Assembly (NCBI GenBank): GCA_022729235.1
Contig: JALDAJ010000001.1
Location: forward strand, 1 to 64,000
Direction: 5' to 3'
Length of the DNA stretch: 64,000 bases
Source of the DNA: Candidatus Nanohalarchaeota archaeon
GTDB lineage: Archaea; Nanohalarchaeota; Nanosalinia; Nanosalinales; Nanosalinaceae
This document shows positions 36,006-37,972 of this stretch, in pieces (position 1 is the first letter of the stretch; each line of letters begins with the position of its first letter). The notes beneath the pieces were generated by a model that searched no databases, was not told the origin of the DNA, and saw only the letters and a program-made list of their open reading frames with translations. Position numbers and translations under genes: made by a program.

Positions 36006-36164
36006 ATTAGACGATTTTAAGAACTATTATAAAGATTTCCAATCGTTTAAACTGCTTAAAACCGTAACAACTTCAAGAATTATTGTTTCTTCTTCCTGCT
36101 TTTAAATATTGCTTTACTCCAGTACACTATTCCTGATTTAAGATTGTCCTCTCCCAGGTACCCC

Positions 36165-36581
36165 ATGAACCTCCACAACCTCAAAAAAGGAGACAGAGTA
36201 CTCTTCAACCAGCGAGAAATACCTCTTGAAGTATCTGACGTCGATGAGAACCGGGTACATGTCAAAGGTCCTAGAGGCGGAGAGTACATCCTGTTCCCTG
36301 CTGAAAACGACCCGGAACTTCTGCTGGTGGCGAACAAAGGCTCCCGGGAATACGCGTCAAAGGTCGAGAACCTTAGAGAAGTAGGCGAGTGGAAGAAAAC
36401 GGGTGAAAACAAATGGAGACACTCGAAGTCGAGTTGCGAGATAAATCTCATTAAGAATGATGCAGGCTTCTGGACGATAGAAACAGCGCTCGAGATAGAC
36501 CTCCCTAAATACGGCTATTCAAGTAAAGAAATAGCCGTAGAAGAGATAGAACAGCTTATAGAGAAAAATCCTGAAGGATGA
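36165..36581 (+). CDS. Hypothetical protein
   Basis: GDRVLFNQREIPLEV...GPRGGEY, SH3-like start; TATA upstream. Confidence 0.65.
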   Translation: MNLHNLKKGDRVLFNQREIPLEVSDVDENRVHVKGPRGGEYILFPAENDPELLLVANKGSREYASKVENLREVGEWKKTGENKWRHSKSSCEINLIKNDAGFWTIETALEIDLPKYGYSSKEIAVEEIEQLIEKNPEG

Positions 36582-36606: not shown

Positions 36607-36912
36607 TTATTCCTCGGGAACTTCTTCGAAATCCTCGTGTTCCGGTTCGTCTACAGGCTCAGATTCAGTTTCCGTTTCAATCTCTTCTCCTGAAGAACCT
36701 TCTAGAGTATCAACTCCCAGGGCAGAGCAGGCAGGACACTGACGAGTGTAACCTGTCGCCAGCAAGGCTACTGCAACAACCGCAGCAACACCTGCAGCCA
36801 TAGGACTCATACTCAAGTAGTATCCCAGATAACCTGCAACCGAAACCACGACCAGCACTGCTCCGAGCGCCAGTCGCACCATACTGTCTGTAGAACCTAC
36901 GTTGGTTTCCAT
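36607..36912 (-). CDS. DUF2892/YgaP family membrane protein
   Basis: NVGSTDSMVR...two TM helices...CPACSALGVDT. Confidence 0.85.
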   Translation of the reverse strand: METNVGSTDSMVRLALGAVLVVVSVAGYLGYYLSMSPMAAGVAAVVAVALLATGYTRQCPACSALGVDTLEGSSGEEIETETESEPVDEPEHEDFEEVPEE

Positions 36913-37000: not shown

Positions 37001-37972
37001 TTACTCGATATGCTCAGTCAGGTTTTCAGGCACATCTTCGAGTCCTAGCTCCTGCACGAACTCACGGCTCCTCTGCCTTAAAGTAACAGTTGTGACATCC
37101 AAGACATCTGATATCTCTTTCATCGTACGGTCTTCTCCCTCCGCATAAGCTGACAGGTAGAGAGCGCTTGCGGCAAGTCCCTTGGGAGATTTACCGGATA
37201 TAAACTCCTTCTCATGAGCCTGCTCCAGTAACTCCTCTGCCTGTTCACTGGTCTCTTGACTGAGATCTAGCTTTTCCACAAACCAGTCCAGGTACTCTCC
37301 GGGGTGTGGCGGTATTATACGCGCATCTGTATTCCTACCTATGAACCGGTAAGCCTTCCCAAGCTCTCGCTGGGGCGCACCTGTGATCTCAGATATCTCC
37401 TCCAGCGTCCTCGGCTCGTCCTCTTCCCTTGCCACGATATATACCGTTGCGGCAACAACATTCCGCAGTTCTCGCCCTCTCATCAAGTCCCTATCATGCA
37501 GTTCTTCAAGAAGATTTTCCGCCCCTTCCTGGACCTCCTGCGAAAGCTCCAGTTCCGCAACCAGAGTCTGTAGAGCCTGTAACTCATACGTATGCCTGTC
37601 CTTAACCTCCGGAAGCCAGCGCTCTACTCCTTCATACTGTGGACGAGCAAAAACCGTAAGTAACAATCCTGCAACAAGCAGAGGCAGTGAAAGACCGATA
37701 GCAGCGAGCCCTGCGACGGACGCCTCAGCCGGGACAGAAACCTCTCTTATATCTCTCTGCCTGGCTGTCCTAATACTGAAGAAAAGCAGGGAGAAAATAG
37801 CTGAGAAGGCAATGAATTCTGTAGCAAATACCGCACCCGTACTGCTGAAAAATACAGATCCAAAGCTGAAGAACCTGCTGAAAACCATCCCTGCAGCTAG
37901 AGCGATTACACCGTATTGCACGCAGAGACTGCCCATACTCCGCCAAGCCTCAAGCTTGTTGTCATAGCCCAT
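37001..37972 (-). CDS. tfb: Transcription factor B paralog with N-terminal transmembrane domain
   Basis: Two TFIIB cyclin repeats (RGR...AATVYIVAR...PRTLEEI; SGKSPKGLAASALY...VTTVTLRQR); no Zn ribbon; three hydrophobic helices. Confidence 0.85.
   Translation of the reverse strand: MGYDNKLEAWRSMGSLCVQYGVIALAAGMVFSRFFSFGSVFFSSTGAVFATEFIAFSAIFSLLFFSIRTARQRDIREVSVPAEASVAGLAAIGLSLPLLVAGLLLTVFARPQYEGVERWLPEVKDRHTYELQALQTLVAELELSQEVQEGAENLLEELHDRDLMRGRELRNVVAATVYIVAREEDEPRTLEEISEITGAPQRELGKAYRFIGRNTDARIIPPHPGEYLDWFVEKLDLSQETSEQAEELLEQAHEKEFISGKSPKGLAASALYLSAYAEGEDRTMKEISDVLDVTTVTLRQRSREFVQELGLEDVPENLTEHIE

What the first reader, a model, noticed from the sequence alone, without database searches (positions are those of the whole stretch)
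37001..37972. Membrane-tethered transcription factor B
Seen: the C-terminal ~190 aa hold both TFIIB cyclin repeats and a BRE-reading HTH variant (VTTVTLRQR, canonical VTEVTIRNR). The N-terminal ~110 aa have no CxxC zinc ribbon or B-reader and instead three hydrophobic helices (about residues 16-37, 46-67, 84-109). No in-frame Met lies between residue 29 and the cyclin core. Established: the TFB Zn ribbon recruits RNA polymerase and the core binds TBP/BRE. Inference: a membrane-anchored TBP/promoter binder that could sequester TBP, tether DNA to the membrane, or be released by proteolysis on a signal such as host contact.
Basis: partly seen in the sequence, partly recalled or inferred. Interest (0 to 1): 0.8.

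Follow-up and report, generated by a model that had tools for sequence, protein, structure and literature searches.

The report
Membrane-anchored TFB core paralogue
A tiny archaeon from a soda lake carries a third copy of the general transcription factor TFB whose polymerase-recruiting front end is replaced by three conserved membrane helices, an undescribed design that probably holds a promoter/TBP-binding module at the membrane.

Summary
Window 37001-37972 (-) is an intact 323-aa gene. Residues 126-312 are a complete TFB/TFIIB core with two cyclin repeats and the BRE-reading helix-turn-helix. Residues 1-110 carry one Cys, no zinc ribbon and no B-reader, and form three hydrophobic helices.

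It is not an assembly or start-codon artefact. The same architecture occurs in about 20 proteins from independent assemblies and in 7 of 70 genomes of the phylum. The N-terminal part is under purifying selection (dN/dS about 0.16-0.20). No in-frame start codon lies between helix 3 and the core.

On a core-only tree the family is one clade (100/100). It joins a short zinc-ribbon TFB paralogue that already lacks the B-reader. The genome also has two canonical TFBs and one TBP.

Best reading (about 50%): a membrane-held, polymerase-blind TBP/BRE binder that acts as a decoy or tether.

The main unsettled point is topology. The positive-inside rule puts the N-tail and loop 2 in the cytoplasm. A plain three-span reading would then put the core outside, unless helix 3, which breaks at conserved Gly/Pro, is re-entrant.

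No function was tested. No RNA run was listed, and the complex predictor was unavailable. I class it as a new variant of a known kind.

The parts
37001..37972 (-). Whole CDS, 323 aa plus stop: the membrane-anchored TFB core paralogue
   Evidence: ORF list; Pfam and NCBIfam; orthologues
37934..37972 (-). N-tail, residues 1-13. It is K/R-rich across the family and has a conserved Trp (AWR/AWK)
   Evidence: Alignments; K+R count of 52 over 21 members
37862..37933 (-). Hydrophobic helix 1, about residues 14-37; Y20 invariant and G21 nearly invariant at its start
   Evidence: KD profile; AF2 helix 3-40 or 3-35; invariant columns
37841..37861 (-). Loop 1, about residues 38-44. It is almost free of K/R across the family and is predicted to lie outside
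   Evidence: K+R count of 5 over 21 members
37772..37840 (-). Hydrophobic helix 2, about residues 45-67
   Evidence: KD peak 2.05; AF2 helix 45-71
37724..37771 (-). Loop 2, residues 68-83. It is K/R-rich and predicted cytoplasmic, and it ends in the invariant E83
   Evidence: K+R count of 55 over 21 members; E83 invariant in 22 rows
37646..37723 (-). Hydrophobic helix 3, residues 84-109. It breaks at 92-94, carries invariant G93 and G102, and has P97. It is either a full span or a re-entrant hairpin
   Evidence: KD peak 2.36; AF2 helices 80-91 and 95-108; invariant columns
37598..37645 (-). Linker, residues 110-125, with the motif Y-x-G-x-E-[KR]-W. Its Trp aligns with the conserved Trp that ends the canonical B-linker region. 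AF2 models it as disordered
   Evidence: pLDDT below 50 at 111-124; column 268 is W in 89% of canonical rows and 92% of family rows
37331..37597 (-). Cyclin repeat 1, residues 126-214. It holds R167, R182, P187-R188-T189, Y208-R209 and R213
   Evidence: PF00382 match at 37346-37576; alignment to 1D3U/1AIS; conservation table
37046..37303 (-). Cyclin repeat 2, residues 224-309
   Evidence: PF00382 match at 37052-37303; Pfam best stretch 224-307
37070..37096 (-). Recognition helix of the BRE-reading helix-turn-helix, VTTVTLRQR, residues 293-301. T294, T297, R299 and R301 are invariant. The family-specific changes are E295T, N300E/Q and Y302S
   Evidence: Invariant columns; comparison with canonical rows; Sigma70_r4 cross-hit at 276-304

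Best explanation
The gene encodes a real, conserved paralogue of archaeal transcription factor B. The zinc ribbon, B-reader and most of the B-linker have been replaced by a roughly 110-residue integral-membrane domain of three hydrophobic helices. The two-cyclin core, with its TBP-contact and BRE/DNA-contact residues, is kept.

Proposed mechanism (inferred). The N-tail and loop 2 lie in the cytoplasm and helices 1-2 span the membrane. Helix 3 dips into the membrane as a re-entrant, kinked segment, so the core stays in the cytoplasm on a flexible 15-residue linker. There it can join the cell's single TBP on TATA/BRE DNA. Lacking the ribbon, it cannot dock RNA polymerase. It therefore acts as a membrane-held, polymerase-blind competitor of the two canonical TFBs. 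It would sequester TBP or hold a set of promoters at the membrane, damping or partitioning transcription.

What is shown: the architecture, its conservation, purifying selection, monophyly, and retention of canonical core residues.

What is inferred: membrane insertion, cytoplasmic orientation of the core, TBP/DNA binding, and the regulatory outcome.
For: Architecture.
- TFIIB repeats score E 2e-38. The TFB profile matches only from position 126 on.
- The N-terminus has one Cys and no ribbon.
- There are three hydrophobic peaks and three confident helices.
- D+E is 5% in residues 1-110 against 22% in the core.

Real gene.
- 15 family members turned up in the 5.8-billion-protein search, from several sources.
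- About 9 full-length clusters plus fragments turned up among 1.84 billion representatives. Bits drop from 287 to 219 where canonical TFBs begin.
- Full-length matches occur in 7 of 70 genomes of the phylum.
- N-terminal dN/dS is 0.16 and 0.20 in two orthologue pairs.
- No start codon lies between residue 103 and residue 163.

Core still looks functional.
- It aligns to P. woesei TFBc of the TBP-TFBc-DNA crystals 1D3U/1AIS at E 1.4e-37 over residues 128-311, with one 2-residue gap. The same chains top the Foldseek list.
- 27 of 53 columns conserved at 85% or more in 28 canonical TFBs are kept at 85% or more in the 24 family rows. These include R167, R182, P187-R188-T189, E192, Y208-R209, R213, G260, T294, T297, R299 and R301.
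- Full-length human TFIIB aligns to query 132-303 at chain positions 119-290, an offset of 13. On that offset human R169 maps to R182 and human V283/R286 map to V296/R299. That R169 is the TBP contact and V283/R286 are the BRE contacts is recalled from the literature and comes from no call.

Role of the missing parts. The ribbon docks RNAP and the B-linker and B-reader act in the active site (PMC7289017, passages read).

Genome background. There are two canonical ribbon-bearing TFBs and one TBP. No stand-alone TFB-type ribbon scores above the Pfam cut-off.
Against: - Topology. Summed over 21 members, K+R counts are N-tail 52, loop 1 5, loop 2 55, and 23 in the 15 residues after helix 3. With three true spans this puts the core outside the cell. 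My reading needs helix 3 to be re-entrant. That rests only on a 3-residue helix break at conserved G93/P97/G102 and was not tested. Helix 3 is 26 uniformly hydrophobic residues, which also fits an ordinary span.
- Divergence. Half of the canonical conserved columns (26 of 53) are not kept at the 85% level. Among them are a Tyr invariant in canonical rows (Leu at residue 155) and three recognition-helix positions. The family evolves far faster than the phylum's main TFB, with end branches of 0.06-0.61 against 0.06 or less.
- Context and spread. No conserved operon points to a regulatory partner. The gene is patchy: absent from 63 of 70 genomes, including the same-genus genome at 96% completeness.
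- No binding, expression or localisation data exist.
Confidence: 0.5

Rival explanations
1. The core faces outward. The topology would be N-in, three true spans, C-out, displaying the cyclin core on the cell surface. There it would bind extracellular or host DNA, much as membrane-anchored DNA receptors work in competent bacteria. In a cell-attached symbiont it could instead meet host TBP or promoters through a cytoplasmic bridge.
For: - The positive-inside counts (52 / 5 / 55 / 23) favour N-in with loop 2 inside, and so C-out for three spans.
- Helix 3 is 26 residues and uniformly hydrophobic.
- An unrelated representative, P0160, has a Lys-rich tail, one hydrophobic helix and a partial TFB core. 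By the same rule that would also be N-in/C-out.
- The family's recognition helix has changed at three positions.
Against: - Residues that matter only for TBP/BRE work are kept, including R182, which maps to the recalled human TBP-contact R169. That is hard to explain outside the cell, where no TBP exists.
- The K+R density after helix 3 (23 in 315 residues) is four times that of loop 1 (5 in 287).
- The TFB core alone binds DNA poorly without TBP (recalled).
- No signal-peptide-like or surface-protein features were seen.
Confidence: 0.15
2. Signal-released inhibitor. The protein is stored at the membrane. An intramembrane or juxtamembrane protease cuts it on a signal, and the freed ribbon-less core then competes with TFB at promoters. 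This follows the logic of eukaryotic membrane-tethered factors and of bacterial anti-sigma cascades.
For: - A 15-residue disordered linker (pLDDT below 50 at 111-124) lies between helix 3 and the core.
- Helix 3 carries helix-breaking G93, P97 and G102. Such residues are typical of intramembrane protease substrates (recalled).
Against: - No protease gene is linked to the locus here or in the five other loci examined.
- The linker carries a conserved motif (Y113, G115, W119) rather than a variable spacer.
- Nothing was tested.
Confidence: 0.12
3. Neofunctionalised scaffold. The cyclin folds no longer work in transcription and serve as a protein-binding module of a membrane complex.
For: - Evolution is fast relative to TFB1.
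- 26 of 53 canonical conserved columns are lost at the 85% level, including the Tyr that is invariant in canonical rows.
- The distribution is patchy and accessory.
- Cyclins appear among the weaker fold matches.
Against: - The retained columns are the basic and HTH residues that contact DNA and TBP in canonical factors.
- Core dN/dS is about 0.13.
- The best structural and sequence matches are TFBc in the TBP-DNA complex, far above the cyclins (E 5e-11 against about 1e-4).
Confidence: 0.15
4. Artefact: a mis-called start, a frameshift fusion of a membrane gene with a TFB fragment, or an assembly chimera.
For: - The only runs that hold the stretch come from one study, and one may be the source sample.
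- The contigs laid from the second run do not bridge the junction.
Against: - The same fusion appears in 7 of 70 species genomes and in proteins from several sources.
- The N-terminal part is under purifying selection.
- There is a single open frame with no internal start for an intact core.
- The family is monophyletic on core columns alone.
Confidence: 0.02

Closest known systems
Canonical archaeal TFB (NCBIfam NF001658; P. woesei TFB core in PDB 1AIS and 1D3U)
   Same: It has two TFIIB cyclin repeats, the BRE-reading helix-turn-helix, and the conserved basic residues of the core. It aligns at E 1.4e-37 over residues 128-311 and is the top fold match.
   Different: It has no zinc ribbon and no B-reader, and keeps only the last Trp motif of the B-linker. 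NF001658 scores 166.8 bits against a cut-off of 384. The N-terminus is a membrane domain. The recognition helix is changed (E295T, N300E/Q, Y302S) and a Tyr invariant in canonical rows is replaced by Leu.
Short zinc-ribbon TFB paralogue of the same phylum (loci L014-L016, protein P0028)
   Same: It is the nearest relative on the core-only tree (joint clade 100/100). Both share the Y-S/E-G-I/V-E-K/R-W motif before the core, the 3-residue deletion at the start of the core, and loss of the B-reader.
   Different: It keeps a CxxC...CxxC ribbon joined to the core by a low-complexity linker, and has no hydrophobic helices. It was seen only in family f5 of the phylum. Its branches are much shorter.
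Sulfolobus TFB3
   Same: It is a non-canonical TFB paralogue that cannot replace the main TFB and works beside it (PMC7289017, passage read).
   Different: From recall, TFB3 is the mirror image: it keeps the ribbon and lacks a working DNA-binding core. It is soluble and activates transcription. Here the core is kept, the ribbon is lost and the protein is membrane-bound.
ArnR/ArnR1 of Sulfolobus acidocaldarius (membrane-bound one-component transcription factors)
   Same: They are archaeal DNA-binding regulators held in the membrane (PMC6396743, title and start of abstract seen in the listing).
   Different: They are specific regulators with a different DNA-binding fold and C-terminal membrane helices (recalled), and they are not general initiation factors. 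There is no homology. They are an analogy of design only.
Bacterial membrane anti-sigma factors and eukaryotic membrane-tethered factors (SREBP, ATF6)
   Same: The logic is the same: the membrane controls access of an initiation component to promoters, in some cases with proteolytic release (recalled).
   Different: The proteins are unrelated. Here the tethered protein is itself a crippled copy of the initiation factor, not a binder of it. No protease partner was found.

Membership tests
Archaeal TFB / TFIIB family | Two C-terminal cyclin (TFIIB) repeats | tested here: met
   PF00382 scores E 2e-38 with two stretches, at 37346-37576 and 37052-37303. Fold matches are 1AIS_B and 1D3U_B.
Archaeal TFB / TFIIB family | N-terminal zinc ribbon (PF08271) that docks RNA polymerase | tested here: not met
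   Pfam gives no PF08271 hit at E up to 1. Residues 1-125 hold a single Cys. The genome-wide PF08271 scan hits only the two other TFB genes above the cut-off.
Archaeal TFB / TFIIB family | B-reader and B-linker between ribbon and core | tested here: not met
   The NF001658 match starts at profile position 126 of 312, and 166.8 bits is below the 384 cut-off. Only the terminal Trp column is shared.
Archaeal TFB / TFIIB family | BRE-recognising helix-turn-helix in repeat 2 | tested here: met
   T294, T297, R299 and R301 are invariant in the family. Three flanking positions differ from canonical rows. DNA binding itself was not tested.
Archaeal TFB / TFIIB family | Binding to TBP on TATA DNA | not testable with these tools
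   The complex predictor was unavailable. The only indirect evidence is R182, at the position of the recalled TBP-contact Arg of human TFIIB.
Integral membrane protein | Hydrophobic helices of membrane-spanning length, conserved across relatives | tested here: met
   KD 19-residue peaks of 1.7-2.4 here, with hydrophobic windows in 15 of 16 aligned rows; the exception is a 216-aa fragment. AF2 gives confident helices. No dedicated topology predictor was on hand, and membrane insertion was not shown experimentally.
Membrane-tethered transcription factor released by proteolysis | A linked or conserved protease and a cleavage site | tested here: inconclusive
   No protease lies among the neighbours in 6 loci. 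Proteases elsewhere in the genome were not searched.

The most novel reading that the evidence does not exclude
The cyclin core is displayed on the outside of the symbiont's membrane, which is the plain reading of the positive-inside counts. There it would act on something foreign. It could capture extracellular or host DNA for import. Or, where symbiont and host cytoplasm meet, it could clamp host TBP-promoter complexes and so interfere with host transcription. That would make it a general transcription factor turned into a surface effector.
Probability: 0.1. Interest if true: 0.92.

Novelty: new variant of a known kind. Interest (0 to 1): 0.7.

Why it matters
General initiation factors are taken to be soluble. 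I found no description of a TFB or TFIIB fused to membrane helices in five full-text searches of the open-access library. Papers outside that library were not searched.

If the core binds TBP and promoter DNA at the membrane, this is a new way of controlling basal transcription in archaea. A ribbon-less copy of the initiation factor would be anchored in the membrane, in cells that have only one TBP and two working TFBs. That would give a very small genome a global switch.

The family also records a stepwise dismantling of TFB: canonical form, then ribbon plus core without a B-reader, then membrane anchor plus core.

The open topology question matters in itself. An outward-facing TFB core would be unprecedented.

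Tried and rejected
- Expression. No RNA holder was listed for the stretch. The three listed runs are DNA from one soda-lake study, and one may be the source sample.
- Read support across the join. The possible source run laid nothing. The second run gave two short contigs, 37413-37601 and 37672-37882, neither bridging helix 3 to the core.
- TBP binding. The queue was full each time, and the tool was then declared unavailable. Nothing was folded.
- Named relatives. The search for related loci failed on the alignment because it had no conserved stretch. With the single protein it found none in genome contigs. Cluster look-up gave no organism or product names beyond 'hypothetical protein'.
- N-domain relatives. 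A search with residues 1-125 alone found only the closest orthologue. The protein atlas gave no usable hit.
- N-domain fold. The search against 48,161 chains gave a best Z of 6.5, below the level that means more than a generic helical arrangement. It did not settle whether helix 3 is a hairpin.
- Conserved operon. None was found. Only a 145-aa protein of unknown family recurs nearby, in 3 of 6 loci.
- Split TFB. No stand-alone TFB-type ribbon scores above the cut-off in the genome.
- Profile hits starting at position 87-88 in G021 and G035 were inspected. They are ordinary ribbon-bearing TFBs. The third such locus, G022, was fetched but not read.
- Independent origins. Among the other listed representatives (140 scanned) only P0160 has a hydrophobic N-terminal helix without a ribbon.
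- Host-derived core. The family does not nest among the other archaeal TFBs sampled.

Full report
**What is there.**
- The ORF at window 37001-37972 (-) is 323 aa. It starts with ATG and has an in-frame stop 7 codons upstream.
- Pfam finds the TFIIB repeat twice (E 2e-38), plus the usual cross-hit of the C-terminal helix-turn-helix to sigma-70 region 4.
- The NCBIfam TFB model matches only residues 129-312, which are profile positions 126-309 of 312. It scores 166.8 bits against a cut-off of 384. The parts of TFB that precede the core are therefore missing, not just diverged.
- The first 125 residues hold a single Cys and no CxxC.
- They give three Kyte-Doolittle peaks of 1.7, 2.05 and 2.36. 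D+E is 5% there against 22% in the core.
- AlphaFold2 with 16 relatives gives helices 3-40, 45-71 and 80-91+95-108, a disordered stretch at 111-124, and the cyclin core at 126-309. Mean pLDDT is 83.8.
- The N-domain modelled alone with 22 relatives is confident and compact, with pLDDT 84.4 and pTM 0.73.
- The motif VTTVTLRQR is at residues 293-301.

**Not an artefact.**
- The genome is a single contig of 1,027,595 bases, 95% complete.
- A search of 5.8 billion proteins returned 15 relatives with the same build, at 41-68% identity, from several sources, plus one canonical TFB. The alignment shows the hydrophobic N-domain in all full-length rows.
- A profile search of 1.84 billion representatives found about 9 full-length clusters plus fragments. 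Bits then drop from 287 to 219, where matches begin only at profile position 104 or so; these are canonical TFBs.
- In a six-frame scan of the 70 species genomes of the phylum, full-length matches occur in 7: G000, G021, G023 and G024 in family f1, and G014, G019 and G020 in family f5. There are none in the 12 genomes of f2-f4. The same-genus genome, at 96% completeness, has none.
- In two orthologue pairs the N-terminal part has dN/dS 0.16 and 0.20, with pN 0.21 and 0.32 against pS 0.65 and 0.70. The core of one pair gives 0.13. dS is near saturation, so these values are rough.
- In-frame start codons are at residues 1, 13, 18, 29 and 103, then at 163/164 inside cyclin repeat 1. No product with an intact core can start after the helices.

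**Background and origin.**
- The genome has two ribbon-bearing TFBs, of 381 and 317 aa by the listed ORFs, and one TBP.
- I built a maximum-likelihood tree from core columns only, leaving out the trait's own N-terminal columns. It has 56 rows and 191 columns.
- On it the 24 family rows form one clade (100/100). That clade joins, again at 100/100, a small group of paralogues from family f5.
- Those paralogues have a CxxC...CxxC ribbon, a low-complexity linker and the same Y-S-G-I-E-K-W motif before the core, but no B-reader.
- They also share the family's 3-residue deletion at the start of the core.
- The likely history is canonical TFB, then ribbon plus core without a B-reader, then membrane domain plus core. 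The root was not inferred, so the direction is an inference.
- End branches of the family are 0.06-0.61. Those of the phylum's main TFB are 0.06 or less.

**Is the core still a TFB core?**
- It aligns to the P. woesei TFB core of the TBP-TFBc-DNA crystals (1D3U, 1AIS) at E 1.4e-37 over residues 128-311, with one 2-residue gap. These chains also top the Foldseek list.
- Of 53 columns conserved at 85% or more among 28 canonical rows, 27 are kept at 85% or more in the family. These include R167, R182, P187-R188-T189, E192, Y208-R209, R213, G260, T294, T297, R299 and R301.
- The other 26 are not kept at that level. They include a Tyr invariant in canonical rows (Leu at 155) and three recognition-helix positions: E295T, N300E/Q and Y302S.
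- Full-length human TFIIB aligns with a constant offset of 13 at both ends. On that offset R182 matches human R169, and V296/R299 match human V283/R286.
- That those human residues contact TBP and the BRE is recalled from the literature and comes from no call here.
- The ribbon docks RNA polymerase, and the B-linker and B-reader work in its active site (PMC7289017, passages read). A protein without them should bind promoters without recruiting polymerase.

**Topology, the weak point.**
- Over 21 members, K+R sums are N-tail 52, loop 1 5, loop 2 55, and 23 in the 15 residues after helix 3.
- The N-tail and loop 2 are therefore cytoplasmic and loop 1 is outside. With three true spans the core would then be outside the cell.
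- The opposite orientation would put 107 positive charges outside and is very unlikely.
- A cytoplasmic core requires helix 3 to be re-entrant. In favour of that, both models break it for three residues at 92-94. It also carries invariant G93 and G102, a frequent P97, and invariant E83 at its start.
- Against it, helix 3 is 26 uniformly hydrophobic residues, which is a normal span.
The fold search of the N-domain gave only generic helical matches, best Z 6.5.
- I favour a cytoplasmic core because TBP- and DNA-contact positions are kept, but this is unsettled.
It is an AI note, not independent evidence.

**Mechanism and rivals.**
- Best reading (about 0.5): a membrane-held, polymerase-blind TBP/BRE binder that competes with the two working TFBs for the single TBP, or holds promoters at the membrane.
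- Rivals:
  - an outward-facing core (0.15);
  - release by proteolysis (0.12);
  - a scaffold that no longer works in transcription (0.15);
  - an artefact (0.02).
- Neighbours give no help. Here they are a YgaP-like membrane protein downstream, with a thioredoxin-like protein and a pyridine-nucleotide disulphide oxidoreductase upstream. None is conserved next to the orthologues.
- Only a 145-aa protein of no known family recurs nearby, in 3 of 6 loci.
- No stand-alone TFB ribbon that could complement the core in trans was found.

**Comparison with the known.**
- By membership the protein meets the cyclin-repeat and helix-turn-helix criteria of TFB. It fails the ribbon and B-reader/B-linker criteria. 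It is best filed as a derived TFB-core paralogue, not a TFB.
- Sulfolobus TFB3 is a non-canonical paralogue that works beside the main TFB. From recall it keeps the ribbon and lacks a working core, which is the reverse of this protein.
- ArnR/ArnR1 show that archaea do use membrane-bound transcription regulators (PMC6396743, title and start of abstract). They are unrelated specific regulators.
- Five full-text searches found no membrane-fused TFB or TFIIB. Passages checked in PMC8204110, PMC13705601 and PMC9905601 were irrelevant.

**Limits.**
- No RNA run was listed.
- The laid contigs do not bridge the join.
- The complex predictor was unavailable.
- No dedicated topology predictor was on hand.
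- The organism's name was not confirmed by any named record. The runs holding the stretch are labelled soda lake metagenome.

**Verdict.** This is a real, conserved and undescribed variant of a core transcription factor. Its function is inferred and its orientation is open. Interest 0.7.

Noticed in passing
L014:1280-2131 (+), and ORFs in L015 and L016; protein P0028: A short TFB paralogue of about 270-285 aa, seen in family f5 of the phylum. It has a zinc ribbon, a low-complexity linker in place of the B-reader and B-linker, then the Y-S-G-I-E-K-W motif and a well-conserved core. It is the sister group of the membrane family. A ribbon-plus-core TFB without a B-reader is itself unusual.
   Followed up: partly
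window 36144-36581 (+): A 145-aa protein with no Pfam family. Homologues at 42-47% identity lie within about 0.4-2.3 kb of the membrane-TFB gene in G021 and G024 as well, making 3 of 6 loci. Their orientation varies.
   Followed up: partly
protein P0160 (representative library): A 263-aa protein outside this family. It has a Lys-rich N-tail, one hydrophobic helix, a roughly 60-residue spacer, then a truncated first repeat and a full second repeat of TFB, with no ribbon. It may be an independent membrane-TFB fusion or a mis-called gene.
   Followed up: no
L001:655-1800 (+) = G000 contig position about 758.9-760.1 kb: The phylum's main TFB carries a strongly acidic extension of about 80 residues ahead of the zinc ribbon. 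Its core is almost invariant across the phylum, with end branches of 0.06 or less on the tree.
   Followed up: no
G000 contig 742.7-743.2 kb (TBP) and 759.5-760.1 kb (main TFB): TBP and the main TFB lie about 15-16 kb apart. A similar spacing shows in the match coordinates of several other closed genomes: G052, G058, G046, G065, G053 and G050. This suggests long-range conserved linkage.
   Followed up: no
window 36607-36912 (-): A 101-aa YgaP-like membrane protein (PF11127, E 1.1e-14) with a CPAC motif and a very acidic C-terminal tail. It lies 88 bases downstream of the membrane-TFB gene on the same strand. It is not conserved next to the orthologues.
   Followed up: partly
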